A stretch of 64,000 nucleotides of DNA from a virus (lineage: Duplodnaviria; Heunggongvirae; Uroviricota; Caudoviricetes): the IMG/VR virus record IMGVR_UViG_2778261503_000006, one strand, 5' to 3'. Both the position numbers and the translations under genes were made by a program. The notes beneath the pieces were generated by a model. That model saw only the letters and a program-made list of their open reading frames with translations. It was not told the origin of the DNA and searched no databases. Position 1 is the first letter of the stretch. Each line of letters starts with the position of its first letter. Shown here piece after piece: positions 2,687 through 57,531 of this stretch.

Positions 2687-3296
2687 GAATAATTATGTTC
2701 TTCTTAATTATGATGAGTTAAACGAAAAGGGGCTGGCAAAACTCGTCAAAGAAATCAGCAAAGGTGGTTACAAGATAGCGAGGGTGATCCCTGCAAGTAA
2801 TGGCAGGAAGAAAGATGGGATCATGACGCGCACGTTTACCCTTATTGGTATTGATGAACAGACAATGGAAGTTCAGGTTAACGATACCGGTGATATATCT
2901 GGGATCAAACTGAATGGTAAAACAGTACCGTTCAAGCCAGTAAAAACAATGTCGGCTTTGGGGCAATCTCTTGCGGCTTTATTTAATCGCGGAGCAACTT
3001 CTTTCCAGAAGTCATTAGCTCGAAAACTTGCTCGTGCAGCAAAAAATATTGATGACGGAAATAAGAAGCGGCAGGGAGTTAAATCTAACGCTCAGAAATT
3101 AGCTGAAGCGAAAGAATCACGTGATGCACTCCGTGAAGATATCGCTAATGCTAACGACAAACTGTCTAAACTCCAGAGCAAGTCAGACAAAGTAATGCAA
3201 GATACGGGTAACGTTAAAGCTGCCTTGTCTCAGGAAGTAGCTAAGACACGTGCTCTTAAAGAAGAAATCGCGCGCCTGGAGGATGAGCATGATTAA
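2676..3296 (+). CDS. Hdf-like protein (shares a module with the following DarA-like protein)
   Basis: 206 aa; central segment resembles a segment of the 3283..5214 product (beta-rich stretch then K/R-rich helical stretch). Confidence 0.45.
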   Translation: MSNKNNYVLLNYDELNEKGLAKLVKEISKGGYKIARVIPASNGRKKDGIMTRTFTLIGIDEQTMEVQVNDTGDISGIKLNGKTVPFKPVKTMSALGQSLAALFNRGATSFQKSLARKLARAAKNIDDGNKKRQGVKSNAQKLAEAKESRDALREDIANANDKLSKLQSKSDKVMQDTGNVKAALSQEVAKTRALKEEIARLEDEHD

Positions 3297-5214
3297 CAAT
3301 CCTTTACGAATTAATATTCAGTCTACTTTTGCTGATACGATCCCCGGCTATGTGCCAAGTCGCTGGTCTTCAGAAGAATTAAGCGAAGATGACCTGATTT
3401 TTGAGGCGGCGACCTTAGAAGATATTGAGCTTGCCTATATGGGCAATGAAATTCTGGTTGTGTCTGACGAAGCTATGTTTGAGTCCATAACTACAACCAG
3501 AATTCGGTTAGCTCAAACAATGCGAGCTTTCGTCCGTGCGCTGAATCGTGGCCTGAATGGTACGAATATTATGGCAGGGACTGATGAAGCCGGGACCGAT
3601 GAAAATGGACGTAATTGTATTGGTGGTGCGATTATCGGTCGTGTACGTCGGGTAGCTAATATCCCTGTTTTGACCGCGCAGATACCGCTTACTGACGGGC
3701 AGAGTACAAGCATAATTTTCCACTCTCCAACAGCTGACGGGGCAAAAATAAAGAGTAACGACGAGCTTGTTGCATTTCAGTTTTTACTTAATAAGCGTAA
3801 CGTAACTCACGTTGTCGCCCCGATTGGTGGGAGAGATGTTTCTTTAAGCCAGGTATGCCAGGCGCTATCTAATTTGATTGAGCGTAACAGCGAAAAATTT
3901 AAGAAAGCAAAAGAGCGCCAGGACAAAATGAAGGCAGATATTGAGAGTTATCTCAATGAAGCAGATAAACTGGCAGAAGAACGGTCAATAATGATTGATC
4001 AGGTGGACGTTGCGCAACGTGGGCTGACTGAAAAGCGTGCTGCTCTTACGGAGATGCAAAAAAAACTTGATGCCCAGAAAGCCATCAACGAGGAATTACA
4101 AGAAAAACGCGATAAATTGTTGTCTGCTAAAGGTGAAAAAACGAAGGAACGAGCGTTTAGTGACCAGCTGCGACATGTAAAACATAATCTTGCCATTGAC
4201 GGAAAAACAGTGCTGGATAATGGCGCTGAAGTTAATTATATCACGTCCGGCAGTGACAATTTCGTTACGATAGTAGCACCTGAAGGTAAATTCAGTATTG
4301 ATGCCAGTGCTGTCAAAGGAGGCAGTTTGGCAGATGCTGCAACCAAATTACTTAAAGCCTACCGAGAGCATAACGCAGATAAATATAAAGTTGATGTGTT
4401 ACCAGGCCAGCAGGAAGACCCCGAACCACCACAGACAGACCCCGAGACGAACCCAGTATCACAACCAGAGAGCCAGGATGTAGGTAAATACCACTATGCA
4501 CTTCAATCTCGCCCGGCTGGTGTTGGTGCTGTGCCGGATGGAAATAAAGCCGTGCTTGATCGTCCTGACCAGGCTGATCAGTATTACGAATATGCTCGTC
4601 ACGGTATCATTACGTATGACCGTAAACTGACAGATGAAGAAGTCAGCCAGTACGAGTTGCTCTATCTTCCTGATGAAGATGAGCTGAAAGATTTTGCAGG
4701 CCAATTGGTTGTGTCCAGCATGTCGAAACATATTGATGGCTATGTAGACCTGTTTGGCAGTGACCTGAAAACATTCAAGGCGCAAGTGAAAATTCTTTTC
4801 CGCAAAGCGTTTCCAAACGTGGCGTATCCACTTGGTGATGGGGAGAACCTTTTCATTATGGACGTGTATAACGCCCTTCAAAATCATTCAAGCGAAGTAA
4901 AAACAGAGCATGTGGTTGAGCCGGAATCACAACCACAACCAGCACCAGAACAGGAGCCGGAGCCAGAAGAAGCTGGTGAATCAGCAAGTGAAGCTGATCA
5001 GGAGGCAGATAAAGCACTGGAGTACCTGAAATCCGTGCCGGAGCAGTTTACATCCCGCGATCTGACGGTCATCAGTGCTGAACTTGATCATGTGCAGGAA
5101 GCAGCAAACGCTCTAATCAGCGCAGGTCGATACGACGAGAACGAAGCCACTGTTGGTGCAGCAGTTGACTACCTGATCAACATTCTGGCTGAAATTCAGC
5201 AGGGAGGTGCTTAA
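3283..5214 (+). CDS. darA: DarA-like antirestriction/head-associated protein
   Basis: 643 aa from ATG 3283 with GGAGGA RBS; size and operon position match P1 DarA as I recall it; acidic Pro/Glu-rich linkers. Confidence 0.5.
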   Translation: MSMINNPLRINIQSTFADTIPGYVPSRWSSEELSEDDLIFEAATLEDIELAYMGNEILVVSDEAMFESITTTRIRLAQTMRAFVRALNRGLNGTNIMAGTDEAGTDENGRNCIGGAIIGRVRRVANIPVLTAQIPLTDGQSTSIIFHSPTADGAKIKSNDELVAFQFLLNKRNVTHVVAPIGGRDVSLSQVCQALSNLIERNSEKFKKAKERQDKMKADIESYLNEADKLAEERSIMIDQVDVAQRGLTEKRAALTEMQKKLDAQKAINEELQEKRDKLLSAKGEKTKERAFSDQLRHVKHNLAIDGKTVLDNGAEVNYITSGSDNFVTIVAPEGKFSIDASAVKGGSLADAATKLLKAYREHNADKYKVDVLPGQQEDPEPPQTDPETNPVSQPESQDVGKYHYALQSRPAGVGAVPDGNKAVLDRPDQADQYYEYARHGIITYDRKLTDEEVSQYELLYLPDEDELKDFAGQLVVSSMSKHIDGYVDLFGSDLKTFKAQVKILFRKAFPNVAYPLGDGENLFIMDVYNALQNHSSEVKTEHVVEPESQPQPAPEQEPEPEEAGESASEADQEADKALEYLKSVPEQFTSRDLTVISAELDHVQEAANALISAGRYDENEATVGAAVDYLINILAEIQQGGA

Positions 5215-5582
5215 TGACCATCTCTGTTTTAGACCGCCTGAAATTAGGTAAAGAGCTATCAGATCTAATGCAGGCGCAGAAAACGGCGCCAGTATTGCAA
5301 CGCGTCACCATTGGTAAGCAGATTGTTGATGTGATGCTGAAATTGGGCTTGGGGACTGCCGCGCAACCGGCAGCGGAACCGCAACAACAGACTGATCCTG
5401 TTGTAGATGAAGTTCCTAAGATAGTGACTGACTTCCTGGGCGGTGTGTTCACAAAGTCCACACAAATGGAATTTATTGATGCGCTGCGTGGGATCTCAAA
5501 CTATGTTGGCGAGTTCCTTACGTTGGAACAGGCAAAAGAGCAGACCATAAGCTGGGTGAAAGCCAACGGTTATGCAGGGTAA
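5214..5582 (+). CDS. small protein (DdrA-like by position)
   Basis: 122 aa, ATGA start/stop overlap with the DarA-like gene. Confidence 0.4.
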   Translation: MTISVLDRLKLGKELSDLMQAQKTAPVLQRVTIGKQIVDVMLKLGLGTAAQPAAEPQQQTDPVVDEVPKIVTDFLGGVFTKSTQMEFIDALRGISNYVGEFLTLEQAKEQTISWVKANGYAG

Positions 5583-5675
5583 TCAAAGGGGCTGAAATGC
5601 CCCTTTCACTTTCCTGTAAGTCCATAAATCACACACTTTTTACACTTCCTGCTTTCTATGTAAGGGGAGTGTATT

Positions 5676-8600
5676 TTGAACAAGTCAGTTACTTCCGCGC
5701 TATCCGAAGCAGCAGACATTAACAGTGTTATTGCGCTGGTTTCTTCATTAGAGAGGCGAGAAACACGCCAGGGGCGCAGTAGTTACGTAGTCACCAGTAA
5801 AGGGGCAGAGGTAAAGACGGCTTTTAAGGTCGTTGATGCCAGCAGTCTGATCATTTCGAACAACCTTGACGGTACGATTAATCCGGCCTTCCCGGAAGAA
5901 CTCCAGCCACGTGACCGTACACGGCTATCAAGCAAACTCCAGGTTAACCGTATTGCCTCCAATTTACGCCCGGCACAATTAACGGATTCCGGCATGAGCA
6001 GCCACGGAGCGCCGATAGTTGGTCCGGACAACGTTGTTGAATCCGGCAACGGAAGGAGCATGGGTATCTGGCGTGCCTATGAGCAAGGGCAGGCGGATGA
6101 ATATCGCCAGTACCTGATCGATCATGCAAAAGAGTTTGGTCTGAATCCTGACGACATTTCACAAATGTCTATGCCCGTATTGGTGCGAGAAAGACTCACA
6201 GATGTAGACCGCGCACAATTTGCCCGCGATTCAAACATCAGCGATCTGCAAGAGATGGCTGCAAGTGAAAAAGCGTATGCGGATGCGCAATTTCTCACTG
6301 AGAGCGTCATGGCGCTATTTAATCCTTCAGATGATGGAAATCTACTGGCGCGGTCCAATGATGCGTTTATTCGTGCGTTTTTGCGCGAAATAGGTGATAC
6401 GGCGACGGCAGGTTTGCTTACTGCCGATGGGCGTCCAACGAAACAACTTATCGACCGCATCCAGAATGCAATTTTTGCCAAAGCGTACAAGGATGAAAGG
6501 CTTGTTCGGCTGGTGGCGGAAGAGCCAGATCCGGAAATGCGTAACATTCTTACCGCATTAAATACGGCAGCCAGCGATTTTGCGCAAATGCAGTCGCTTT
6601 CAGGTGATGTTCACCATGACACGGTAACCGGACTGGTAGACGGTATAGAGCAATTGAATGGTCTGGATAAACAGGCTATTGCCGCGCTACAGGAAGCAAT
6701 TAACCTTGTTCGTGAAGCAAAAGATAACGGTCAGGCAGTAGAAGAGGTGATCGCACAGCGTGGATTGTTTGGAGATAGCACTCCGGAAGCAGAAGCGCTT
6801 GCTCTGTTTATTGTTGCCAACAACCGAAGCGCTAAGCGAATGGGGGCAGCTTTCAAGAAACTGGCGCAAAAAATTAACGATGAACTTATTCACCAGCAAC
6901 AAGCGTTAGGCGATATGTTCGGCGGCGGAGATGTCGATCTGCGTAGCATTTTATCTGCCGTTTCTGATGAAATTGAGGCTGAGTATGGCGAAGGTAAAGG
7001 GCTTAATTTCGCCATGTTTGAATCGGTTTCAGGAGAGGTCGAACCATACATTTCAAAGCTAATTGCTGATGCGACCAGCGTGGAGGACTTGATCCGAATC
7101 GTGAAGGTGTCAGAAAAAATTAAGGAGTCCGCAAAAAAAATAAAGCGCAATGTATTTTTGGAACTTGGTTTTTATATTCGCAATGTCACCGTTAATGAGA
7201 TTAAGGAGTGGGCTAAACGTTATGGATACAGCGACGCTGTGTTAACAACGATGTTATTGTCTTATCAACGCAGCAATTTTTATGCTAACGCACTGCGTGA
7301 CGCGATTGAAAAAGGAGATGAAGCTCCTTCGCTCGCAGATGAAAGAAATATTGATTGTGATATTGAAACGTTTTGCAACATATCAGAAGAAGGCGTGCCC
7401 GCTGAACAATTTATACGTGTTTTACATAATGCAGCAAAACATATTCCTGATGACTTTAGTATTGATGAATTGCGCAATGGTTGTCTTGTTTGGTTAGGTA
7501 ACTATTTAAAATCTCCAGCGTCTATTGCAGAGAAAACAGCTTTAAGATTTAGAAAGGAAATGAATAAAGCTGGAAGCGCAGAAGAGATGGTGTGCATAAT
7601 CCAAAATACTTTGAAGTTATTCAAAAAGAGCTTGCATAATATCGACGATATTATGGCGGCTGGTAGGAAAATAACAGCCAGTGTCGGAGTTAGCTCTGAA
7701 CTAACGGCAGAGGAGATCGCTGATGCGTATATTGAGACACTTGTCAGGCTTAAGGAGATAGTGGAATTAGCAGAGCATTCCTCATATTACGGAATCAAGG
7801 AGCGTGTTGACTTTACTATAGAACAAATCAATAAAGTTAGGTCAAATAAGGAAAAACTCACTGACTACCTTGCTGAGGTTTTGCACCAGAATGATCATGG
7901 GATTGGATATGATCTGAAAAAAATGCTTGTTTTTAATCTGGACATACCGGAAGACTTGCAAGCAGAACTATATGAAATAGCTTCATTAACACGTGGACAA
8001 AAAGCCTATCCTAATGCGCTTGAAAATGTAGTACATAAAAAAGTCAGAGCCGCATTTGACATGATTCTTGAATCGTCAAATGTGTCACATGACCAGTCTA
8101 AGGAATGGAGTCGTGGGATTGCTATTTCTGATGAAGCAGAGCAGTTAAGTGGTCACGATAATGAAACTTTCTCCCGTAAAGCATACAGTATTCGCGAGAC
8201 GATTGAAAAAGCCTATATTATTTCAGGAGGGACTTTATCTACATTAAAAAATATTAACCACAAGAACAATGTTCGTGCTTTTGCAAGTCGAAATGGGAAT
8301 ATAACAATTGATGCTAATAGTGATCACGAGCGTGTATTATGGCATGAAATAGGTCACCATATAGAACATTCAAATCCCCATCTATTGGAGAGGGCCAAAG
8401 CCTTCATTAAATCAAAAACTAACGGTAAAGTTTCTTATCATAATATTGGTAGCCGTGGCAGTGCTGAGTATTTGGTGCGAACCGACCTAAGTCATGGATA
8501 TATGTCTAAAATTTATATGGAAAATACGGTAAGTTCTGTCAGCGGCAGATTTATATCAAAGCCACCTGCATTAAGCAATTGCAGGGCGACTGAGATTTTT

Positions 8601-8717
8601 TCTATGGCCTTGCAGATGTATGCCGATCCGGAGCAGGCGACTAACTCTGTATTAAACAATGACGGCGTGCTGGAATTTTTCTTGGGATGTATGAAGGAGT
8701 TGCAAAATGAAGTATAG
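5676..8717 (+). CDS. large virion-associated protein (DdrB-like by position) with AT-rich C-terminal HExxH metallopeptidase-like module
   Basis: 1013 aa from TTG 5676 with AAGGGGA RBS; GC drops visibly after ~nt 7100; WHEIGHHIEH at nt 8339-8368. Confidence 0.6.
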   Translation: MNKSVTSALSEAADINSVIALVSSLERRETRQGRSSYVVTSKGAEVKTAFKVVDASSLIISNNLDGTINPAFPEELQPRDRTRLSSKLQVNRIASNLRPAQLTDSGMSSHGAPIVGPDNVVESGNGRSMGIWRAYEQGQADEYRQYLIDHAKEFGLNPDDISQMSMPVLVRERLTDVDRAQFARDSNISDLQEMAASEKAYADAQFLTESVMALFNPSDDGNLLARSNDAFIRAFLREIGDTATAGLLTADGRPTKQLIDRIQNAIFAKAYKDERLVRLVAEEPDPEMRNILTALNTAASDFAQMQSLSGDVHHDTVTGLVDGIEQLNGLDKQAIAALQEAINLVREAKDNGQAVEEVIAQRGLFGDSTPEAEALALFIVANNRSAKRMGAAFKKLAQKINDELIHQQQALGDMFGGGDVDLRSILSAVSDEIEAEYGEGKGLNFAMFESVSGEVEPYISKLIADATSVEDLIRIVKVSEKIKESAKKIKRNVFLELGFYIRNVTVNEIKEWAKRYGYSDAVLTTMLLSYQRSNFYANALRDAIEKGDEAPSLADERNIDCDIETFCNISEEGVPAEQFIRVLHNAAKHIPDDFSIDELRNGCLVWLGNYLKSPASIAEKTALRFRKEMNKAGSAEEMVCIIQNTLKLFKKSLHNIDDIMAAGRKITASVGVSSELTAEEIADAYIETLVRLKEIVELAEHSSYYGIKERVDFTIEQINKVRSNKEKLTDYLAEVLHQNDHGIGYDLKKMLVFNLDIPEDLQAELYEIASLTRGQKAYPNALENVVHKKVRAAFDMILESSNVSHDQSKEWSRGIAISDEAEQLSGHDNETFSRKAYSIRETIEKAYIISGGTLSTLKNINHKNNVRAFASRNGNITIDANSDHERVLWHEIGHHIEHSNPHLLERAKAFIKSKTNGKVSYHNIGSRGSAEYLVRTDLSHGYMSKIYMENTVSSVSGRFISKPPALSNCRATEIFSMALQMYADPEQATNSVLNNDGVLEFFLGCMKELQNEV

Positions 8718-9000
8718 CATTGTGAGTCCCGCTGGGATTAGAGGGATTGTTGAATGCTCTGATGACGGCACATTGCGTATATTTGAAGGCGATATTTCGG
8801 AAGAAAATATTGCGCAAGATTTACGCTTTATCAACACAAATTCCGCAATGGGGATCGTGAATACCATTCATGCCGATGGGGTGTTTGTTCTGCGGAGCCT
8901 GGAAACTGTTGGCTGGGAGGTTGAGTGGCCAGAGGTGGAAGGAGATCCTGACGACGAAGACGATACTGGCGAATCATATCAAGACATTGATGTGAATTGA
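8707..9000 (+). CDS. small acidic protein, possible partner of the upstream C-terminal module
   Basis: 97 aa, overlaps the stop of the 1013-aa gene, Asp/Glu-rich C-terminus, followed by a terminator. Confidence 0.5.
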   Translation: MKYSIVSPAGIRGIVECSDDGTLRIFEGDISEENIAQDLRFINTNSAMGIVNTIHADGVFVLRSLETVGWEVEWPEVEGDPDDEDDTGESYQDIDVN

Positions 9001-9013
9001 TATGATTGATAAT

Positions 9014-9036
9014 CCCGCCGTCAGGCGGGTTTTTTT
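9014..9036. terminator. rho-independent terminator (hairpin plus T-run), shared by convergent genes
   Basis: cccgccgtcaggcggg followed by ttttttt. Confidence 0.75.
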
Positions 9037-9298
9037 AGCGTGGTGTAAGAATAAATTCAGGATGCTCTCCAGCAAGCAATAACAGGTACTCAAATTCACC
9101 AGCCATAAGGCGTCTCGGTTTATTTCTATCTTCTTTGAATTGCCAAGCCCGGAGTTGATACCCCATTTTGTGGGCTAACTCCGTTTGCGTTAGCCCCATT
9201 CGCTGGCGGATTTCAATTATAGTTTCCGGGGTGTTTGGTGGGAGTTGTTTCACAATATGCCCTTTGCCAATGCTGTGATTCGCAACGAAGTATATCAT
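9035..9298 (-). CDS. XRE-family helix-turn-helix regulator
   Basis: 87 aa; RQRMGLTQTELAHKMGYQLRAWQFKE HTH signature. Confidence 0.7.
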   Translation of the reverse strand: MIYFVANHSIGKGHIVKQLPPNTPETIIEIRQRMGLTQTELAHKMGYQLRAWQFKEDRNKPRRLMAGEFEYLLLLAGEHPEFILTPR

Positions 9299-9310
9299 CG
9301 TTGAATCGAT

Positions 9311-9613
9311 TCACAGAGCTGCGCCGAATAGACCGCAGCATGGCATCCCTTCATCACAGTACCTGGCCCATTCTTTTTGGCATTCTTCTGTTTGCGCGTA
9401 TTGGCTTAACGCGTCATCCAGCATATCCCAGGCCTTATAGGAATCCTCTGCAACGCTAAACAAAGTCCTGCCTTCCCGGCTTAGAATTTGCAGATTGTAA
9501 ATGTTTTCATTGCTCAGACATGCGCGGCTGATATGCATGTAAACCGACCATGCAGGAACTCGATTTTTGATAGCAAGTTGGTGTAATTTGGAATTAATTA
9601 AAGAGCTTTTCAT
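9311..9613 (-). CDS. hypothetical protein co-transcribed with the downstream HTH gene (possible toxin-like partner)
   Basis: 100 aa from ATG 9613 with GGAGA RBS; 13-bp gap to the HTH gene. Confidence 0.45.
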   Translation of the reverse strand: MKSSLINSKLHQLAIKNRVPAWSVYMHISRACLSNENIYNLQILSREGRTLFSVAEDSYKAWDMLDDALSQYAQTEECQKEWARYCDEGMPCCGLFGAAL

Positions 9614-51787: not shown

Positions 51788-52103
51788 AGTTGAATTGAAA
51801 AACTCTCCGATGTACATTCACTACCGATTGGCACACCGGTCAACTTTTTGAGACAAACTGTTTAGTTTTTCGTATTATTGCCTCCGCCATACCTATGGCG
51901 GTGCAATATAGGTGGCTGAAAAGCCCCCGTTGACTCACGGTGTTCCAGCCTTTATTGCGCCGCCACCAGACCGTGGAACAGTCGATGGCGGCTCCGAAAG
52001 CAAGGAGTCACAACACTATGAACAACTACAGTCTTTTCCCATCACTCGTCTTCCACCACTCACGCGATAATCTGCATTCTTTACTCGCGCTGGAGGTGTC
52101 AAA

Positions 52104-52271
52104 ATGACGGTTCGCTACCTCAACTTTCAAATCAAGAACATTACTGGCGGTTGCTATGACTGGTTTGTCACTCTCGGAAAAGAAGTGATCACCGGGAAGC
52201 TGGATGAAGTGAAAGCTAAAGCAATGGCCTACGCCTGCAAGCAAGCCCGGAAGAAATCCGCCAAAGCATAA
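52104..52271 (+). CDS. candidate 55-aa small protein
   Basis: ATG 52104 with GGAGGTG RBS; below track size cut-off. Confidence 0.3.
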   Translation: MTVRYLNFQIKNITGGCYDWFVTLGKEVITGKLDEVKAKAMAYACKQARKKSAKA

Positions 52272-52376
52272 AATACTGACTGTTGCGCCCTGGCATTATC
52301 GTGGGGTATATTTCTACGGCACCTTAGAAAAACGGGTGCCGGGATTGAGACCCCGGATAATGCAAAAGGCGACACA

Positions 52377-52398
52377 GACGCCGAAAGCGTCTTTTTTT
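52377..52398 (+). terminator. rho-independent terminator
   Basis: gacgccgaaagcgtc followed by ttttttt. Confidence 0.7.
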
Positions 52399-52447
52399 GT
52401 GTCATGCCATCGCACAGCCATACGTAGCGTATAGCTCCAAGATCAAT

Positions 52448-52523
52448 GGTAGTGCTGGCTGGGCTGCCGAAAGGCAGGCCGGTTCCCTTTTGCGCCGGTA
52501 GTCTCAACCCAGCCAGTGCTACC
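52448..52523 (+). ncRNA. candidate structured antisense-type RNA upstream of the icd-like gene (c4-like by analogy); unverified
   Basis: 16-bp outer stem ggtagtgctggctggg/cccagccagtgctacc enclosing two hairpins. Confidence 0.3.
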
Positions 52524-52583
52524 GCCATTGAGATTGAGACCTCACGCGGTAGCTCCTTAAATTAGCAAAAGGAGGCTGCCAAT

Positions 52584-52799
52584 ATGGCTACTATCCCTAC
52601 CCCAACTCATTCTGAATTTATCTGGCGTTTCTATTCCTGCCAAAAGCACCTGTATATCTGCGTCATGGCTGCTACCGAATCAGAGGCGCGCTCATACCTT
52701 CCCGAAGAACCCTGCATTTTTGCTGCTCGCTTCACTCTTGATGCGATGGAGATCCTCAATTACTGGAATCTGCCGATGAACTGCGTGGAGGTGCGCTGA
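52584..52799 (+). CDS. icd: Icd-like small protein (second copy)
   Basis: 71 aa; SEFIWRFYSCQKH...AATESEARSYLPEEPCIFAARF; TGATG overlap with the ant gene. Confidence 0.55.
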   Translation: MATIPTPTHSEFIWRFYSCQKHLYICVMAATESEARSYLPEEPCIFAARFTLDAMEILNYWNLPMNCVEVR

Positions 52800-53740
52800 T
52801 GAATCTGTCCATCTCTCAAAAAGCGACAATGACCAGCATTGAGATCGCGGAGCTGGTAGGAAGTCGCCCAGATAGTGTGAAGAGAACTATCGAAACACTG
52901 GCTAAAAAGAGTGTGATCCAATTTCCACAATCTGTGGAAATTGAAAATAAACAATCAGTTGGCCCTCGTCGATTTTCCAAGGCTTACATCTTTGAAGGCG
53001 AACAAGGAAAACGAGACAGCATCATTGTCGTCGCGCAGCTCTCTCCGGAATTCACCGCCCGGCTGGTGGACCGCTGGCGCGAACTGGAGAATGCCCGGGT
53101 ACAGTTAAAATCAAAAGCCGAAATCCTGGCTGAAATGGCGCAAATGCATCTTGAGCATGAACGCCGGATCAACGCCGTAAATGCCCAGGTAGCCGAGGTA
53201 TCAGCACAAGTATCGATGGTCGCTGAAACCGTCGAGCAAATAAAGAAAGGCAATATTCCGGAAGGCTACATTGGCTACCGCCAGTTGGCGGCGAAATGTG
53301 GCCTGACTGAAGCCAAATGTCGCAACCTGGTTAACGCTTACCGGATTCCCACCGATACGCATGAGTTTTTAACTCCAGATGGTTTGCTTGCGCGACGCTC
53401 CATTGTGGCCCTGGCCCCCTTCCGGAAAGCCTTTAAGCAGGTGATGTCAGAGGCAGAACCACGCAATAAACGCTGGTATCATCCAAAGATGGGGATGTTT
53501 CAGGCAATCCACCATCCTGTGCCTGAAAGTCCAAAGGCAAACCTGTCGTTGCATACCGCCAGAGAGAGGATTAAAACAGGCTATGCAATCGTATGCCGTC
53601 GAGCATCCTGGCCTGAAGGTGTATGGGTGTGGCCCGAAGGTGGATCACGAAAGCACTGGCGCACTATCCGGGATGGGAAAATCCATGCGATTGATTTAGC
53701 TCCAGAGGATGTTGTTGCTACGGACTGGATTGTTAGTTAA
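52799..53740 (+). CDS. ant: phage antirepressor (Rha/Ant family) fused to a C-terminal DUF2829-like domain
   Basis: 313 aa; N-terminal MTSIEIAELVGSRPDSVKRTIE; C-terminal YAIVCRRASWPEGVWVWPE...ATDWIVS equals the separate 66-aa ORF of the first copy. Confidence 0.7.
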   Translation: MNLSISQKATMTSIEIAELVGSRPDSVKRTIETLAKKSVIQFPQSVEIENKQSVGPRRFSKAYIFEGEQGKRDSIIVVAQLSPEFTARLVDRWRELENARVQLKSKAEILAEMAQMHLEHERRINAVNAQVAEVSAQVSMVAETVEQIKKGNIPEGYIGYRQLAAKCGLTEAKCRNLVNAYRIPTDTHEFLTPDGLLARRSIVALAPFRKAFKQVMSEAEPRNKRWYHPKMGMFQAIHHPVPESPKANLSLHTARERIKTGYAIVCRRASWPEGVWVWPEGGSRKHWRTIRDGKIHAIDLAPEDVVATDWIVS

Positions 53741-53799
53741 TTACTGTTGCCCCGGCCTGTCCGGGGCTTTAACTACTAAATAACCGGATTCTCCGCACG

Positions 53800-54087
53800 A
53801 TGAAGAAAATAGATTTCACTTACTCTGCTGCCACAATCCAGCGACGTTTCAGTCTCATAAGGGAAGTGGAACTATCAAAAAACTGCTATCAAATTCTACT
53901 GGATGAAGAGTTTTCACTGATGGTTATAGCAGAAAAATTGGCTATGCCGAATGACCGACACAAGGTCATAGCCAGCCTCGATCTGGTGACAAACAGATAC
54001 TGGGAGACAGAGGAACTACATGAAGCGGGAGTAATTCGTGGCCTGATGGAGAATTCCGTTCCCCGTCGTTATAGTGTGATGAGCTAA
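53800..54087 (+). CDS. hypothetical protein
   Basis: 95-aa ORF. Confidence 0.4.
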   Translation: MKKIDFTYSAATIQRRFSLIREVELSKNCYQILLDEEFSLMVIAEKLAMPNDRHKVIASLDLVTNRYWETEELHEAGVIRGLMENSVPRRYSVMS

Positions 54088-54413
54088 AACTCACCTGCAC
54101 ACCGTCAGGCCCAACGCAAATAAATGAAACATCCCGCTCTTGGTGTTTCAGTGAAATAGCTCATTTTTAGCTTGGAAGCAACTTGATTATGAGCTAAGCC
54201 TGACATACACTTCAGCGAGAAAATGATCAAGTTAAAGACACAAAAGCTCTGTTTTAACAGAGCTTTTGTGTCTTTAAAACATAGATATCATGCCATATAT
54301 AGTGCCAAAATTAGTTTTAGACACTATATATATTATAAAAGGTAAAAACCGCTTCTACTTTTAACATCCACAGAAAAAAGAAAGCGGTTATAGATAAGGG
54401 AAAAGGAGGGGTT

Positions 54414-54719
54414 ATGCTCTATGCGGTTCCTCAGCAAGCTTCTGATTCTTTGAAGTTAATCAAGACTGTACTTCAGCTTATAGCATCTCAACAAGAAGTG
54501 TCACAGCAGTTAAAGTTACGGGTTTATGAGGTGATCAGAGAAGCCTCAAACTTAAGTGTAGATAAAGGTGATCAATTACAGATTCCTTCTCACAGAGAGT
54601 CCATCTCGCTCGCGGTAGAGATACGCCACACTAAGGCGCTCGCCCAGGTGCTAACCAAAGTAACTAGCGAAGATATGTTAGAACCCGTAATGGCCCGGAA
54701 TGTATTAGAGTACATTTAA
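54414..54719 (+). CDS. small helical protein, first gene of AT-rich three-gene operon
   Basis: 101 aa; ATG 54414 with AAAAGGAGGGG RBS. Confidence 0.5.
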   Translation: MLYAVPQQASDSLKLIKTVLQLIASQQEVSQQLKLRVYEVIREASNLSVDKGDQLQIPSHRESISLAVEIRHTKALAQVLTKVTSEDMLEPVMARNVLEYI

Positions 54720-55792
54720 TGCTTGCATTTACACAACTTACATTAGTTCGAAATAAGCTAAGGGAGATATCAGAATCTCCCTATTTTTCTAAAGACATGC
54801 ATGAATATCTTGCTGTTCTACAAGAAGCGGTAGATAAGCTCTATGAAAACCATGTGAATGTTGCTGATAAAATAATTGCGGATTGTACTTTTTTTATCAC
54901 CGATGCAGTTAATTTTTTCACTGGCAGTACTACAAAGAAAATTCCCTACGAGATTGTTTATTGCTTAAATGATGCCTGTAAAAAATGGATAAGTGAAAAA
55001 ACACTTATAACCACAGCCCTATCTCCAGATATGCATGGGTTTTATTTTAAGTCTGTAAACAAGAATTTGTATTCTTTATTTGATGAAGTTTTAAATGTCA
55101 AATTCGAGGTCGAATTAATTCAGATTTCATTACCTGAAATGTACAGAAGACGACCATTATGCTCTATACCTTTATATCACGAATTGGGACATTTCGTTGA
55201 TATTAGCAAAGGTATTTCTGAGCTTGCCTGTCTTAACTATCGTTCCAAGGACAAAGGCACACTTCCAGGACCAGAATGGAGTAATCTACCTGATGTTATT
55301 TGGATAAATCATTGCAGAGAATATTTTGCAGATCTATTTAGTGCCCAATTTATTGGAAAAAGTGGGGTAGATTTCTTATACAAATTAGCTGGCTCTCATC
55401 CTGCAAGCTATACTCACCCATCCACAGAAGATAGAGTTAAAATTGTAAGCGACTTTTTGAACAAAGTGGAAAATCCAGTTGTTGGCATGTTCAATGCTGT
55501 GATATCAGCCTTACATAAGGGTGGGCAGATTATTTCTCCTTGTTTGACATTGCCGACACCTTTGCTTGATGTGAAATCAGCTTTTGATAATGTGCGTCCT
55601 TTTGTTATTCGCGACCACAATGAAATGCATGCTTTTATTAACAGCAGCTGGCAGTACTTATGCTCTGAATGGGAAAAACCTACGGGTATATGGTCTGGGT
55701 TGTCAAAAGAAGCCATAGAAAAAACTATAAATGATTTGGTTGAAAAATCGATTCGAAACGTAATGATTCTTGAAAAATGGAGTGCACAATGA
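54719..55792 (+). CDS. HExxH zinc-metallopeptidase-like protein
   Basis: 357 aa; HELGH at nt 55178-55192; AT-rich; translationally coupled to both neighbours. Confidence 0.6.
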   Translation: MLAFTQLTLVRNKLREISESPYFSKDMHEYLAVLQEAVDKLYENHVNVADKIIADCTFFITDAVNFFTGSTTKKIPYEIVYCLNDACKKWISEKTLITTALSPDMHGFYFKSVNKNLYSLFDEVLNVKFEVELIQISLPEMYRRRPLCSIPLYHELGHFVDISKGISELACLNYRSKDKGTLPGPEWSNLPDVIWINHCREYFADLFSAQFIGKSGVDFLYKLAGSHPASYTHPSTEDRVKIVSDFLNKVENPVVGMFNAVISALHKGGQIISPCLTLPTPLLDVKSAFDNVRPFVIRDHNEMHAFINSSWQYLCSEWEKPTGIWSGLSKEAIEKTINDLVEKSIRNVMILEKWSAQ

Positions 55793-56406
55793 ATCTCCTA
55801 AGCAAAGCTGAATTGCTGCAATATTATGAATCAGAAGAACCTGAGTCGTTGTTCATTGAACCTCTTCTAAATAAAAACCAAATTGGAAACTTCACCATAG
55901 ACCTTAGACTTGGTTACGATTTTTTAGTGTCTATTATGACAAGGAAGCCGTCAATAGAGTTAATTCCCTCAAAAAACAATGATACTCATCAACCAATCAG
56001 AACATTTTTCCAGGAAACAAGGAGAGATCTTGGGGATAGGTTCATTGTTTACCCGAATCAAGTGGTACTGGCAACAACATTAGAATATGTTTGTTTGCCA
56101 CCAGATTGCTACGCTGATGTATTGTCCAGAAGCAGCTATACAAGGCTTGGTCTTTCATTAAATACCATGATACAACCAGGGTACAGAGGCTGTATATCTT
56201 TAGAGTTATTTAATCATGGGAATAGCCCTGTAGAACTTATTGTTGGATCTCGCATATGTCAAATTCGTATATTCAAGAATGAAACTGTCGGTGAATACAT
56301 AAGTCATGAGTCTCACAGGAAATATTTCGGAAATGTGAGGCCAACCGTCTCAGCAGCAGAAAGTGATAATGAATTAAATATGCTGGAAAAGATCCGACAA
56401 AAATGA
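55777..56406 (+). CDS. dCTP deaminase / dUTPase-fold enzyme (Dcd-like); alternative start ATG 55789
   Basis: IDLRLG, SSYTRLGL, PGYRGCISLELFN, GSRICQIRIF blocks align with E. coli Dcd. Confidence 0.7.
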   Translation: MECTMNLLSKAELLQYYESEEPESLFIEPLLNKNQIGNFTIDLRLGYDFLVSIMTRKPSIELIPSKNNDTHQPIRTFFQETRRDLGDRFIVYPNQVVLATTLEYVCLPPDCYADVLSRSSYTRLGLSLNTMIQPGYRGCISLELFNHGNSPVELIVGSRICQIRIFKNETVGEYISHESHRKYFGNVRPTVSAAESDNELNMLEKIRQK

Positions 56407-56494
56407 AAACTTTAATGCTTTATATTATAAAAACATACAGCGACAACGCAGCCACCAAGATGTGTTGTCGCCATGTTCAAAGTGCTAACACAGT

Positions 56495-56887
56495 TTAAAA
56501 ATCACCTGCGCGCTGTTTTTCAAGCACAGATTTAACATTTGGCACTTTCCCTTTAAAAGAATGGAAAGTGCCACATTTTTCTGTTTTAACTTCGCGCAGA
56601 GCTTCGCCATCGGCGTTCTGCCATTGATGGGATAATGTCATATCACCGCGAGAAGGAACATCCAGCGAGTACAGCGTGTAAGTTCCCCCCATCTCCGCAT
56701 ACTCCTGGAACACATAGCTCATTACGTCAGATTCAGTTTTTCGGTGTACGTTATCAACCTTATTCCCATTCAGAAATATGGCATCTGGATAGATTTTTAT
56801 ATCAAACCGACCGCACTTAACTTGTAAATTTCCGGCGCTCGCGATCAAAGGGAAAGACGCCAGTAAAGCAATTGTCAATCTTTTCAA
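56495..56887 (-). CDS. secreted small protein with signal peptide
   Basis: 130 aa; MKRLTIALLASFPLIASA signal peptide. Confidence 0.5.
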   Translation of the reverse strand: MKRLTIALLASFPLIASAGNLQVKCGRFDIKIYPDAIFLNGNKVDNVHRKTESDVMSYVFQEYAEMGGTYTLYSLDVPSRGDMTLSHQWQNADGEALREVKTEKCGTFHSFKGKVPNVKSVLEKQRAGDF

Positions 56888-56907
56888 TTCTGCCTCCGCT
56901 GCGTAAC

Positions 56908-57531
56908 TTATTGCCCGTATTTTTTACACCATTGCTCTGCCATTTGTTTGGCTAAAGGCCCGGCTACTGCACTGTATTCTGCTGTTTTACTTTGCACACA
57001 TGAAGCAGATGGTTTTTTATTTCGCTGCTCGGTTAGTTTGCGCTCATAAGCCATCATGCTATCGAACCCGGCAATATCACTTTGGCGAAGCATTCCCTTT
57101 TTAACCAAAAATTGCTGCCCCTCGGGCACCAACGCAAGCATAAAAAGTGGTTGCAATAACTCACCTAATCCTTGCTGGCGATACACTTCGAATTGCTGCC
57201 ATCCCTGACTTAATCTGGAAAGAGTATCTTTGGTTGAATAACCTGTTTTTGTTATAGCTTTGTCCGTCAGATATGCTGTATATGCAAAAACGCAAAAGTC
57301 AGTTTTACCAATAAACTGAGTTCCAACAGGCCGTAATGGAATGCCCTCCCTCTTGCAAAAGTCCATAATGGCCGCTTGTGAATGATCCCCACCAGCATTA
57401 TTCATAACCTGCTGCCCTGCCCTGAATTGTGCAGGTAACGCAGTTGCATTGGCAGTATTAGCAGATACGCATCCCAACATAGCCGCGAGCGCGGCCCCTA
57501 AAACCCTTAACTTCACTACACCATCCTTCAT
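56908..57531 (-). CDS. secreted/periplasmic protein with signal peptide
   Basis: 207 aa; LRVLGAALAAMLGCVSANTANA N-terminus. Confidence 0.5.
   Translation of the reverse strand: MKDGVVKLRVLGAALAAMLGCVSANTANATALPAQFRAGQQVMNNAGGDHSQAAIMDFCKREGIPLRPVGTQFIGKTDFCVFAYTAYLTDKAITKTGYSTKDTLSRLSQGWQQFEVYRQQGLGELLQPLFMLALVPEGQQFLVKKGMLRQSDIAGFDSMMAYERKLTEQRNKKPSASCVQSKTAEYSAVAGPLAKQMAEQWCKKYGQ

What the first reader, a model, noticed from the sequence alone, without database searches (positions are those of the whole stretch)
54414..56406. AT-rich three-gene cargo operon: small protein + HExxH peptidase-like protein + dCTP-deaminase-fold enzyme (best candidate for an undescribed system)
Seen: three translationally coupled + strand ORFs (stop/start overlaps at 54716-54721 and 55789-55792) in a ~2 kb block whose GC content is visibly lower than the flanking backbone, preceded by a 17-bp perfect hairpin (54235-54274). 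ORF2 (357 aa) carries H-E-L-G-H at nt 55178-55192. ORF3 aligns block for block with E. coli Dcd (IDLRLG, SSYTRLGL, PGYRGCISLELFN, GSRICQIRIF). Established: defensive dCTP deaminases that deplete dCTP on infection are known, but as I recall them they are single large kinase-deaminase fusions; HExxH peptidases of the ImmA/IrrE type act as proteolytic switches. Inference: a compact split module in which a peptidase (and perhaps the 101-aa protein) gates a dCTP-deaminase effector, carried by a P1-like phage-plasmid as an exclusion system or as a nucleotide-pool counter-defence. I could not match the three-gene architecture to any named system from memory.
Basis: partly seen in the sequence, partly recalled or inferred. 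Interest (0 to 1): 0.85.

Follow-up and report, generated by a model that had tools for sequence, protein, structure and literature searches.

The report
Unnamed peptidase–dCTP-deaminase three-gene defence-island module
A phage-plasmid of E. coli carries a compact, evolutionarily conserved three-gene cassette (small helical protein, novel zinc peptidase, dCTP-deaminase-fold enzyme) that sits in defence islands across two bacterial phyla and, in a third of cases, right next to bacterial ubiquitin-like "Bub" operons, so it is most likely an undescribed nucleotide-pool-attacking immune or exclusion module.

Summary
Three translationally coupled + strand genes lie at 54414-56406 in an AT-rich block behind a perfect palindrome.

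- **ORF3:** a Dcd-fold dCTP deaminase. It scores 113 bits against TIGR02274 (cutoff 92.8), and every catalytic and triphosphate-binding residue of E. coli Dcd is invariant.
- **ORF2:** a cytosolic zinc peptidase with M48-type motifs (HExxH, ExxAD, HP..R), invariant in 55/55 relatives. It is not ImmA/IrrE. Its overall fold has no solved neighbour.
- **ORF1:** a fast-evolving all-helical protein.

The trio is a conserved unit. Of 57 ORF2-bearing loci from Proteobacteria and Bacteroidota, 54 have the deaminase directly downstream and 52 have an ORF1 homologue upstream. Two loci carry in-frame ORF2-ORF3 fusions.

Neighbours are integrases, toxin-antitoxin pairs, restriction-modification genes and QatABCD. 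One copy is inserted inside a type I R-M locus. In 18 of 57 loci the cassette abuts a CapH/CapP-regulated Type I Bub operon, in several arrangements.

PADLOC models and the searchable literature do not describe it.

The host element is phage D6-like. The cassette occupies the variable slot that holds the simB-like superimmunity gene in D6.

Best reading: a protease-controlled dCTP-depleting defence or exclusion module. The mechanism is inferred, not shown.

The parts
54026..57473 (.). Variable accessory segment of the D6-like phage-plasmid. It contains the cassette plus two minus-strand secreted-protein ORFs.
   Evidence: Relatives without the cassette (L068, L069) align at 96-97% up to 54025 and again from 57474. 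In phage D6 this slot holds orf80 and a simB-like superimmunity gene, between a pmgF-like gene and mat.
54232..54277 (.). Perfect palindrome (22-nt arms, 2-nt spacer) that marks the left edge of the transferred cassette. It may be an insulator/terminator hairpin or an operator.
   Evidence: Folding gives -31.1 kcal/mol with z = -9.15. The arms are listed. The same palindrome lies upstream of the Dickeya cassette. The Proteus cassette has a 24-nt version whose arm changes are compensated. Nucleotide homology between the window and Dickeya starts at 54230. The palindrome is not found upstream of distant family members.
54274..54331 (+). Promoter-like site (TTAAAA-18-TATAGT, 54274-54303) that overlaps a second inverted repeat (54295-54310 / 54316-54331).
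   Evidence: The consensus scan is weak: 9 of 12 matches, and the count of such sites is not above the shuffle expectation. The second inverted repeat recurs at the same relative position in the Proteus, Dickeya and Aeromonas cassettes.
54414..54719 (+). ORF1, 101 aa: an all-helical small protein and the fastest-evolving member of the cassette. It is the proposed inhibitor, adaptor or sensor subunit.
   Evidence: ORF and Shine-Dalgarno sequence. There is no significant Pfam, NCBIfam or PADLOC hit; it matches PHROG 27938, of unknown function. An iterated HMM finds a homologue directly upstream of ORF2 in 52 of 57 loci. The AF2 model has five helices but is of low confidence, pLDDT 55. Mean pairwise identity is 20%. 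There is no conserved C-terminal glycine.
54719..55792 (+). ORF2, 357 aa: a cytosolic zinc metallopeptidase with an M48-like catalytic core flanked by novel helical domains.
55178..55192 (+). HELGH zinc-binding and catalytic motif of ORF2 (residues 154-158).
   Evidence: Read directly from the sequence. Invariant in 55/55 relatives.
55319..55435 (+). Second half of the ORF2 active site: E201-Y-F-A-D205 (third zinc ligand helix, M48-type ExxAD) and T232-H-P-S...R239.
   Evidence: These are invariant columns. The sub-threshold Pfam M48 match covers residues 198-243, which is profile positions 137-182 of 186.
55789..56406 (+). ORF3, 205 aa: a Dcd-fold (dUTPase-like) dCTP deaminase and the proposed effector.
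   Evidence: Pfam DCD at E = 1.2e-30. TIGR02274 at 113.4 bits, above the 92.8 cutoff. Aligns to PDB 4xjc and 1xs1. Among 54 family sequences, the residues equivalent to E. coli Dcd R110, S111, S112, R115, G117, E138, K178 and Y179 are at least 98% conserved. The clade is tight: the 120 best database hits are 55-100% identical to ORF3 and 184-222 aa long.
56128..56205 (+). ORF3 active-site stretch, from R114-S115-S116 and R119 to E139. E139 is equivalent to the catalytic Glu138 of E. coli Dcd.
   Evidence: Alignment to E. coli Dcd together with family conservation. Codons were read.
56438..56473 (.). Inverted repeat (GCGACAAC...GTTGTCGC) in the 90-nt gap between ORF3 and the convergent minus-strand ORF. 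It is a possible shared terminator.
   Evidence: The scan flags a terminator-like site on the minus strand at 56457-56438. The sequence was read. It is not conserved in the Proteus or Dickeya copies.

Best explanation
The cassette spans 54230-56410 and consists of the palindrome, a promoter region and ORF1, ORF2 and ORF3. It is a self-contained, horizontally mobile conflict module, expressed from the D6-like prophage-plasmid to protect the lysogen from other phages or mobile elements.

**Shown**
- The three genes are inherited and transferred as a unit.
- The deaminase and the peptidase both keep complete catalytic sites under strong purifying selection.
- The module lives in defence islands.

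**Inferred**
- The Dcd-fold enzyme is the effector. Once unleashed, it converts dCTP to dUTP, or to dUMP. This starves replication of dCTP and floods the pool with deoxyuridine nucleotides.
- That outcome matches the kinase-deaminase dCTP-deaminase defence, but it is reached with an unrelated fold.
- ORF2 physically associates with ORF3. It controls ORF3 by proteolysis, either of the fast-evolving ORF1 (an inhibitor or decoy) or of the deaminase's own C-terminal lid and extension, in response to an infection cue.
- In about a third of family members the same module is wired to a CapH/CapP-regulated Type I Bub ubiquitin-like conjugation operon. This suggests it can act as that pathway's downstream arm or as its target.
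For: **Unit of inheritance**
- Of 57 ORF2-bearing loci from GTDB species representatives (Alpha-, Beta-, Gamma- and Deltaproteobacteria, Leptospirales and Bacteroidota), 54 have the Dcd-like gene immediately downstream. The three exceptions are L014, whose contig ends there, and L016 and L055.
- 52 of the 57 have an ORF1-family gene immediately upstream.
- All three members of the ORF3 clade picked from the ORF3 hit list for their long contigs show the same three-gene layout.

**Physical coupling**
- Start/stop overlaps join the genes in the window.
- In-frame ORF2-ORF3 fusions occur in L038 and L053, and P0334 (631 aa) is a likely third by length.

**Catalytic competence**
- ORF3 exceeds the dCTP_deam equivalog cutoff and keeps all Dcd catalytic and lid residues.
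- The ORF2 HExxH, E, D and HP..R residues are invariant in 55/55 sequences.

**Sensor versus effector gradient.** Mean pairwise identity over the same 44 loci is 20% for ORF1, 33.5% for ORF2 and 49% for ORF3.

**Defence context**
- Proteus: a P4-type integrase/AlpA island with QatABCD adjacent.
- Dickeya: an integrase island with an HTH-M78 pair.
- Metagenome copies lie among MazE/PIN, Phd/ParE, VapBC, HNH plus methylase, XamI/Eco57I R-M, Mrr and HipA genes.
- Emticicia plasmid: inserted between hsdR and hsdS/hsdM.
- D6 family: the cassette occupies the slot that holds the simB-like superimmunity gene in D6.

**Regulators and Bub**
- CapH/CapP, BubAB, BubCD and BubE lie next to the cassette in 18 of 57 loci, in at least three arrangements.
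- These loci are scattered over at least 9 clades of the ORF3 tree.
- In Agrobacterium pAt1 the Bub genes and the cassette are annotated as one co-directional gene row.

**Precedent.** dCTP depletion by deamination is an experimentally shown antiphage mechanism.

**Second copy.** E. coli already has a housekeeping dcd (PDB 1xs1 is E. coli Dcd). The cassette is present in only 8 of 5426 complete E. coli genomes, always on plasmids.
Against: - There is no experimental evidence of phage protection, toxicity or dNTP-pool change for any family member.
- PADLOC-DB 2.0 has no model for any of the three proteins. This shows novelty, but it also means no validated relative exists.
- What the peptidase cleaves is unknown. 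ORF1 could not be modelled with confidence and has no conserved cleavage motif.
- The substrate of ORF3 is assumed from homology. It could be dCTP to dUMP (bifunctional), or a modified or other nucleotide.
- Three loci have ribonucleotide reductase genes directly upstream, which hints at nucleotide metabolism.
- Bub operons themselves have not been shown to protect against phage. The association could therefore point to a DNA-damage or stress response rather than immunity.
- The co-occurrence statistics come from loci found through ORF2, with flanks of 6 kb, in one genome per species.
Confidence: 0.5

Rival explanations
1. The cassette is primarily the downstream arm, or the substrate, of Bub-type ubiquitin-like conjugation within a DNA-damage or stress response. 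CapH/CapP de-repress it after DNA damage. The Bub Ubl is conjugated to, or removed from, ORF1, ORF2 or ORF3 to switch the deaminase. The E. coli, Proteus and Dickeya copies are orphaned versions that have lost the Bub genes. This overlaps with the best explanation and differs in the trigger and in the biological role.
For: 18 of 57 loci have CapH/CapP plus Multi_ubiq/E2 (BubAB), JAB-ThiF (BubCD) and DUF6527 (BubE) within 6 kb, often contiguous and co-directional (L017-L021, and Agrobacterium pAt1). The association is spread over at least 9 clades of the ORF3 tree and over two phyla. The targets and function of Bub are unknown, and no effector is known. CapH/CapP respond to DNA damage.
Against: Two thirds of sampled loci, including the window, have no Bub or CapH/CapP genes nearby, so the cassette must work on its own. 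ORF1 has no beta-grasp prediction and no conserved C-terminal glycine. The fraction of Type I Bub operons that carry the cassette could not be measured, because the metagenome scan failed. The Bub papers held in the library do not mention a deaminase.
Confidence: 0.22
2. The cassette is a tripartite toxin-antitoxin or addiction module that stabilises the phage-plasmid or island. The Dcd enzyme is the toxin, ORF1 is a labile antitoxin, and ORF2 is the protease that removes it. Any phage defence is incidental or absent.
For: The layout is compact, translationally coupled and autonomous, with a small fast-evolving first gene. It is located on plasmids, islands and prophages among other TA pairs. 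An upstream palindrome and inverted repeat are compatible with autoregulation.
Against: The D6-like plasmid already carries a RelE/ParE-HigA pair, and relatives lacking the cassette are common: 90 records share at least 80% of the upstream flank 51800-54200, but only 12 carry the cassette. Insertion inside a type I R-M locus, adjacency to Qat, and CapH/CapP regulation are signatures of immune systems. Many TA modules are themselves abortive-infection systems, so this rival is not cleanly separable from the best explanation.
Confidence: 0.13
3. The cassette is ordinary nucleotide metabolism or a phage auxiliary metabolic gene set. An extra Dcd boosts dUMP/dTTP supply for replication of the phage-plasmid or of the host, and ORF1 and ORF2 are unrelated passengers or maturation factors.
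For: RefSeq annotates ORF3 as dcd. It passes the dCTP_deam equivalog threshold. Three Bacteroidota-type loci have nrdAB directly upstream.
Against: The deaminase is almost never found without ORF1 and ORF2 and is sometimes fused to ORF2. The clade is distinct from housekeeping Dcd, scoring only 58 bits against E. coli Dcd. The distribution is sporadic and mobile: 8 of 5426 E. coli genomes and 579 ORF2-family cluster representatives at E <= 0.001 among 1.84 billion. The cassette is rare on viral contigs, with 3 loci in IMG/VR. Neighbours are defence and mobility genes, not metabolic operons.
Confidence: 0.07
4. The deaminase makes a signalling nucleotide and is not a pool-depleting effector (a Kongming-like logic). 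A base-modified deoxynucleotide produced on infection activates a separate effector, for example the peptidase itself or a neighbouring gene such as SIR2.
For: A three-gene antiphage system that signals through a deaminated nucleotide has been described (bioRxiv 10.1101/2024.12.20.629578, abstract seen). In Agrobacterium pAt1 a SIR2-family gene directly follows the dcd gene.
Against: SIR2 adjacency was seen in one locus only and is not among the recurrent neighbours. dUTP and dUMP are abundant normal metabolites and therefore poor alarm signals. No homology to the Kongming components was detected, since PADLOC and Pfam gave no such hits.
Confidence: 0.05

Closest known systems
Defensive dCTP deaminase (Tal et al.; same family as Vibrio AvcD)
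   Same: The predicted chemistry and outcome are the same: deamination of deoxycytidine nucleotides so that an infecting phage runs out of dCTP. That system is also carried in defence islands.
   Different: The known enzyme is a single 576-aa protein with an N-terminal kinase-like domain and a C-terminal zinc-dependent cytosine-deaminase domain. ORF3 is a 205-aa Dcd/dUTPase-fold enzyme with no zinc-deaminase or kinase domain and no PADLOC hit. It always comes with a peptidase and a small protein.
Housekeeping dCTP deaminase Dcd (TIGR02274; E. coli 1xs1, B. halodurans 4xjc)
   Same: Same fold and the same catalytic and triphosphate-binding residues: Arg110, Ser111, Ser112, Arg115, Glu138, Lys178 and Tyr179 in E. 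coli numbering. ORF3 scores above the equivalog cutoff.
   Different: ORF3 belongs to a separate, tight clade (55-100% identity to ORF3 among the 120 best hits) that scores only about 58-64 bits against solved Dcds. Compared with E. coli Dcd it has a loop 3 residues shorter after the RLGL motif and a conserved C-terminal extension. It is mobile and sporadic, and it is locked in an operon with ORF1 and ORF2.
M48 zinc metallopeptidases (HtpX, Ste24/ZMPSTE24, BepA, Oma1)
   Different: ORF2 scores below the Pfam M48 gathering threshold, 16.1 against 20.3 bits. No transmembrane segment or signal peptide is evident from reading the sequence or from the globular helical model. The N- and C-terminal helical domains have no solved counterpart. 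It has no known link to membrane-protein quality control.
Type I Bub (bacterial ubiquitination-like, '6E/DUF6527') operons with CapH/CapP
   Same: In 18 of 57 family loci the cassette lies next to, or in the same gene row as, BubAB, BubCD and BubE plus CapH/CapP. Both are found on mobile elements and in defence loci.
   Different: The window contains no Bub or CapH/CapP gene. None of the three cassette proteins is an E1, E2, Ubl, JAB or DUF6527 protein. The Bub literature held in the library does not mention the cassette.
Protease-switched immune or TA modules (CapH/CapP, RosmerTA RmrA, ImmA/IrrE-ImmR)
   Same: The logic matches the proposal made here: a zinc peptidase that cleaves a small partner protein to release an activity.
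   Different: Those peptidases are M78 (PF06114), and the partner is an HTH repressor or antitoxin. ORF2 has no M78 or PADLOC RmrA/CapP match. ORF1 has no significant HTH match (LacI E = 0.09).

Membership tests
Dcd-type dCTP deaminase (TIGR02274 / Pfam PF22769, dUTPase-like fold) | Profile score above the curated cutoffs | tested here: met
   TIGR02274 scores 113.4 bits against a cutoff of 92.8. PF22769 scores 107.1 bits against a cutoff of 27.
Dcd-type dCTP deaminase (TIGR02274 / Pfam PF22769, dUTPase-like fold) | Catalytic Glu138, Ser111 and Arg115, and the phosphate-binding Arg110/Ser112 and C-terminal Lys178/Tyr179 (E. coli numbering) | tested here: met
   All are present in ORF3 and at least 98% conserved in the 54 family sequences aligned (ORF3 plus 53 loci).
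Dcd-type dCTP deaminase (TIGR02274 / Pfam PF22769, dUTPase-like fold) | Enzymatic conversion of dCTP to dUTP (or dUMP), homotrimeric assembly, dTTP feedback inhibition | not testable with these tools
   This needs an enzyme assay. The loop after RLGL is 3 residues shorter than in E. coli Dcd, so regulation may differ.
Defensive dCTP deaminase (Tal et al. / AvcD) | Zinc-dependent cytosine/dCMP-type deaminase domain | tested here: not met
   There is no such Pfam or NCBIfam domain in ORF1-3, and no PADLOC hit at E <= 1. The family's architecture is described.
Defensive dCTP deaminase (Tal et al. / AvcD) | N-terminal kinase-like (P-loop) domain fused to the deaminase | tested here: not met
   ORF3 is 205 aa and is covered end to end by the Dcd profile.
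Defensive dCTP deaminase (Tal et al. / AvcD) | Infection-triggered dCTP depletion and phage resistance | not testable with these tools
   This requires plaque assays and LC-MS of nucleotide pools.
Peptidase family M48 | HExxH plus a downstream Glu (ExxAD) as zinc ligands, and a (S/T)HP..R motif | tested here: met
   H154, E155, H158, E201, D205, H233, P234 and R239 are invariant in 55/55 sequences.
Peptidase family M48 | Pfam PF01435 score above the gathering threshold, or clear structural superposition | tested here: inconclusive
ImmA/IrrE (M78) proteolytic switches | Peptidase_M78 (PF06114) domain, usually paired with an HTH repressor | tested here: not met
   ORF2 has no PF06114 hit and no RmrA or CapP PADLOC hit. 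True M78/HTH pairs do occur, but as separate neighbouring genes in relatives.
Type I Bub operon | BubAB (Ubl-E2), BubCD (JAB-E1) and BubE (DUF6527) genes | tested here: not met
   None is present in the 64-kb window. They are present next to the cassette in 18 of 57 related loci and in Agrobacterium pAt1.
Anti-phage defence system (generic operational definition) | Enrichment next to known defence genes or on mobile islands | tested here: met
   Neighbours include Qat, type I/III R-M, TA pairs, Mrr, HipA, CapH/CapP and integrases. No formal enrichment statistic was computed.
Anti-phage defence system (generic operational definition) | Experimental protection against phage | not testable with these tools
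   No experiment could be run. No report was found in the searchable literature.

The most novel reading that the evidence does not exclude
The ORF1 / M48-like peptidase / Dcd cassette is the missing effector or target module of Type I Bub ubiquitin-like conjugation pathways. DNA damage or infection de-represses CapH/CapP. The Bub Ubl is then attached to, or removed from, a cassette protein, and the zinc peptidase acts as a dedicated processing or deconjugating enzyme. This switches on a dCTP-destroying enzyme. It would be the first case of ubiquitin-like modification controlling nucleotide-pool immunity in bacteria. The E. coli phage-plasmid copy would be a naturally uncoupled, easily testable minimal version.
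Probability: 0.25. Interest if true: 0.88.

Novelty: new variant of a known kind. Interest (0 to 1): 0.72.

Why it matters
- **A second route to nucleotide starvation.** If the cassette protects against phage, bacteria would have arrived at antiviral nucleotide starvation a second time. They would have done so with a different enzyme fold (Dcd/dUTPase-like rather than zinc cytidine deaminase) and a different control device (a dedicated M48-like protease plus a small protein).
- **A function for an uncharacterised peptidase family.** It would assign a function to a structurally novel peptidase family that has about 580 cluster representatives worldwide.
- **A lead on Bub.** The cassette gives a concrete, testable clue to an open question: what Bub ubiquitination-like operons actually do. 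A third of the sampled cassettes are physically tied to them.
- **A tractable model.** The copy studied here sits on an E. coli phage D6-like phage-plasmid, in the slot that holds the simB-like superimmunity gene in D6. It can therefore be cloned and challenged in a standard host.

Tried and rejected
**Database and literature searches**
- PADLOC-DB 2.0 gave no meaningful hit for any of the three proteins.
- A PDB sequence search with ORF2 returned only noise.
- All ten literature searches, including one with RefSeq accession numbers, found no description of the cassette. They also found no link between Bub or CapH/CapP and a deaminase. The supplement of the Bub paper is not held.
- Megablast against INPHARED phages found no copy of the cassette.

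**Structure**
- The AFDB library was unavailable.
- ORF1 has only 10 close homologues in the word-indexed database. Its model was low-confidence (pLDDT 55), so I did not search with it.

**Hypotheses dropped**
- ORF1 as a ubiquitin-like protein. It is helical and has no conserved C-terminal Gly.
- ORF1 as an HTH regulator. The only support is a LacI-type match at E = 0.09.
- ImmA/IrrE identity for ORF2.
- The upstream palindrome as a family-wide feature. It is restricted to the enterobacterial copies; distant loci match the background.

**Failures and exclusions**
- I tried to measure how many Bub operons carry the cassette. The broad BubCD alignment was too divergent for pattern search.
- The Salmonella plasmids NZ_MK356557 and NZ_MK356558 look like error-rich assemblies, so I did not use them.


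Full report
**1. What is in the sequence**

The three + strand ORFs exist as described.
- ORF1 is 54414-54719 (101 aa), behind an AAGGAGG ribosome-binding site.
- ORF2 is 54719-55792 (357 aa).
- ORF3 is 55789-56406 (205 aa).

The ORF1 stop and ORF2 start share a base (TAATG). The ORF2 stop and ORF3 start overlap as ATGA. HELGH is encoded at 55178-55192.

GC content is 0.33-0.41 over the block, against about 0.47-0.53 upstream. Downstream it is 0.42-0.47 through 58200.

It is a perfect palindrome with 22-nt arms (54232-54253 and 54256-54277), at -31.1 kcal/mol and z = -9.2 against dinucleotide shuffles.

**2. The three proteins**

*ORF3* is a bona fide member of the Dcd (dUTPase-like fold) dCTP deaminase family.
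- Pfam DCD gives E = 1.2e-30. NCBIfam TIGR02274 gives 113.4 bits against a cutoff of 92.8.
- It aligns to solved Dcd structures 4xjc and 1xs1.
- I aligned ORF3 with 53 homologues from other genomes and with E. coli Dcd. The positions equivalent to Arg110, Ser111, Ser112, Arg115, Gly117, the catalytic Glu138 and the C-terminal lid residues Lys178/Tyr179 are all at least 98% conserved.
- Compared with E. coli Dcd, the family has a loop 3 residues shorter after the RLGL motif and a conserved C-terminal extension.

*ORF2* has no significant hit in Pfam, NCBIfam, PADLOC or PDB sequences.
- Its family alignment shows an invariant HExGH...D, E201-x-F-A-D205 and H233-P...R239. These residues are present in 55 of 55 sequences from two phyla.
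- That triad of motifs is the M48 signature. The sub-threshold Pfam M48 match (16.1 bits, cutoff 20.3) covers exactly residues 198-243.
- An AlphaFold2 model built on 86 sequences is very confident, with pLDDT 94.6.
- ORF2 is therefore a soluble zincin with an M48-like core and otherwise novel helical domains. It is not an ImmA/IrrE (M78) protein.

*ORF1* has no family assignment. Its model is low-confidence but all-helical. Only an N-terminal ML-x-A and a few hydrophobic positions are conserved, and there is no C-terminal glycine.

**3. The trio is a conserved unit**

- A word-indexed search found 216 ORF2 homologues. An exhaustive profile search found 579 cluster representatives among 1.84 billion, so the family is rare.
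- A scan of one genome per species returned 57 loci from Alpha-, Beta-, Gamma- and Deltaproteobacteria, Leptospirales and Bacteroidota.
- In 54 of them a Dcd-like gene follows immediately, usually overlapping. In L038 and L053 the two genes are fused in frame through a short linker. P0334, at 631 aa, is a likely further fusion.
- An iterated HMM seeded with ORF1 recovers a small protein directly upstream of ORF2 in 52 of 57 loci and nowhere else in those loci.
- From the deaminase side, the 120 best database hits are 184-222 aa long and 55-100% identical to ORF3. Three of them, chosen for long contigs, all show the same three-gene layout.
- Over the same 44 loci, mean pairwise identity is 20% for ORF1, 33.5% for ORF2 and 49% for ORF3. 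That gradient is what one expects of a fast-evolving sensor or regulator plus a conserved enzymatic effector.

**4. Where it lives**

In E. coli and Salmonella:
- The identical 2.25 kb occurs on 12 plasmids. All are non-mobilizable; eleven are about 90-99 kb and one is 169 kb.
- It is present in 8 of 5426 complete E. coli genomes, never on the chromosome.
- The backbone is 98.8% identical to phage D6.
- Relatives lacking the cassette align up to 54025 and again from 57474.
- In D6 itself this slot holds orf80 and a simB-like superimmunity gene, between the icd-ant-pmgF-like genes and mat.

Elsewhere:
- Proteus mirabilis: on a P4-type integrase/AlpA island, beside QatABCD.
- Dickeya: on an integrase island beside an HTH-M78 pair.
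- Metagenome and MAG contigs: among MazE/PIN, Phd/ParE, VapBC, HNH plus methylase, XamI/Eco57I R-M, Mrr and HipA genes.
- An Emticicia plasmid: inserted between hsdR and hsdS/hsdM of a type I R-M system.
- A Bradyrhizobium plasmid: near HNH and helicase genes.
- Only three loci were found in 2.9 million IMG/VR contigs.

Nucleotide homology between the window and the Dickeya copy begins exactly at the palindrome (54230) and ends just before the ORF3 stop (56392). The Proteus copy has a palindrome with compensated arm changes. The mobile unit is therefore palindrome, promoter region and three genes. Distant family members lack such a palindrome.

**5. An unexpected partner**

I scanned the three nearest genes on each side of the 57 loci against PADLOC and Pfam. 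The commonest neighbours were E1-E2-like proteins, ThiF, Prok-JAB, Multi_ubiq, Prok-E2_E, DUF6527, and HTH plus Peptidase_M78 (CapH/CapP, RmrA-like). These are the components of Type I Bub operons: BubAB is a Ubl-E2 fusion, BubCD is a JAB-E1 fusion and BubE is a DUF6527 serine protease, and the operons are often regulated by CapH+CapP.

Eighteen of the 57 loci carry such an operon within 6 kb of the cassette, in at least three arrangements:
- Bub genes followed co-directionally by ORF1-3 (L017-L021). RefSeq annotates the same row in Agrobacterium fabrum pAt1.
- CapH-CapP-ORF1-3 divergent from Bub (L022, L023, L027).
- The cassette convergent with CapP/CapH, with Bub beyond (L010, L029, L036, L048, L050, L057).

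On a neighbour-joining tree of the deaminases, the Bub-linked cassettes fall in at least nine separate clades, interspersed with stand-alone ones. Bub operons are rare (544 were catalogued), so by inference this adjacency is far above chance and has been gained, kept or lost repeatedly.

The Bub papers in the library do not mention a deaminase or an M48-like peptidase. As of 2026 they state that Bub has not been shown to protect against phage and that its targets are unknown.

The window itself has no Bub or CapH/CapP gene.

**6. How it most likely works**

Shown:
- The three genes form a unit.
- Both enzymes retain intact active sites.
- ORF2 and ORF3 can be a single polypeptide.
- The genomic context is defence and mobile DNA.

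Inferred:
- The Dcd enzyme is the effector. When released it deaminates dCTP, starving replication. This is the outcome demonstrated for the unrelated kinase plus zinc-deaminase dCTP deaminase.
- The peptidase binds the deaminase and controls it by cleaving ORF1 or the deaminase's C-terminal lid extension after an infection cue.
- On the D6-like prophage-plasmid this would act as a lysogen-protecting exclusion function, in the slot that holds the simB-like superimmunity gene in D6.

I put about 0.5 on this overall statement. Sub-claims: about 0.97 that it is a functional three-gene module, about 0.75 that it serves inter-genome conflict, and about 0.35-0.4 for the specific proteolytic-gating step.

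**7. Rivals**

- A Bub-dependent or stress-response role (0.22). This overlaps with the above.
- A tripartite addiction module (0.13).
- Plain nucleotide metabolism or an auxiliary metabolic gene (0.07). The dcd annotation and three nrdAB-adjacent loci support it. Obligatory linkage to ORF1 and ORF2, the sporadic distribution and the defence-type neighbours count against it.
- A Kongming-like signalling deaminase (0.05). The support is a single SIR2 neighbour.
- Counter-defence seems unlikely, given how rare the cassette is on viral contigs.

**8. Novelty and limits**

No PADLOC 2.0 model matches. PHROGs lists the three proteins only as families of unknown function. Ten full-text searches found no description.

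I cannot exclude a report in subscription journals, in supplements, or in newer DefenseFinder or PADLOC releases.

Functionally I file it as a new variant of nucleotide-depletion immunity. Its parts are non-homologous to the known systems, and it is not a member of the known dCTP-deaminase defence family, whose defining domains I tested for and did not find.

Limits of the analysis:
- Co-occurrence numbers derive from ORF2-anchored loci with 6-kb flanks.
- The reverse statistic, the fraction of Bub operons with the cassette, could not be obtained.
- Nothing here is experimental.

Noticed in passing
L017-L023, L027, L029, L036, L037, L043, L048, L050, L055, L057, L004, L010; L079 (Agrobacterium fabrum pAt1): CapH/CapP-regulated Type I Bub ubiquitination-like operons (Multi_ubiq/E2, JAB-ThiF, DUF6527) lie directly next to the cassette in 18 of 57 related loci. 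They occur in several arrangements and in at least 9 clades of the deaminase tree. The Bub papers available here do not mention this.
   Followed up: partly
window 54232-54277 and 54295-54331; L064 9512-9555; L060 9500-9549: A perfect 22-24-nt-arm palindrome and a second inverted repeat over the putative -10 region travel with the enterobacterial cassettes. The Proteus copy has compensatory arm changes. The palindrome marks the exact left end of nucleotide homology between the E. coli and Dickeya copies. Its role (terminator/insulator, operator or recombination site) is unknown.
   Followed up: partly
window 54026-57473: The whole 3.45-kb segment is a swap relative to phage D6 and most D6-like plasmids. 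Those carry orf80 and a simB-like superimmunity gene at this position. The breakpoints fall inside the 3' end of the pmgF-like gene and inside the 5' end of the simB-like gene.
   Followed up: yes
window 56495-56887 (-) and 56908-57531 (-): Two minus-strand ORFs with signal-peptide- or lipoprotein-like N-termini and no Pfam match accompany the cassette on the phage-plasmids but not in other hosts. The second keeps only the N-terminus of the D6 simB-like gene.
   Followed up: partly
L080 (Emticicia oligotrophica plasmid NC_018742, locus 7489-9583): The cassette is inserted between hsdR and hsdS/hsdM of a type I restriction-modification system. This placement is typical of accessory defence genes.
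   Followed up: no
L038 1826-3736; L053 5857-7728; P0334: These are natural in-frame fusions of the peptidase and the deaminase (623-636 aa), with a short, roughly 20-35-residue linker, in Chitinophagales.
   Followed up: partly
L039, L056, L059 (about 3100-5500): Class I ribonucleotide reductase genes (nrdA, and in at least two of the loci nrdB) lie directly upstream of the cassette in three related loci. The three form a single clade in the deaminase tree, so one ancestral insertion is a possible explanation.
   Followed up: no
L060-L063 (Proteus mirabilis island, 3265-9104): A complete QatABCD-like defence system plus an extra 422-aa protein of unknown function sits immediately upstream of the cassette, on a P4-type integrase/AlpA island.
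   Followed up: no
window about 61.3-62.0 kb (from L001 16139-16850): A RelE/ParE-HigA toxin-antitoxin pair is annotated on the same phage-plasmid backbone, as in phage D6.
   Followed up: no
L002 / L082 (Salmonella plasmids NZ_MK356557, NZ_MK356558): These are copies of the cassette at 89-92% nucleotide identity, with heavily fragmented annotation and an apparent second partial copy. They are probably error-rich or redundantly assembled records, not real variants.
   Followed up: partly
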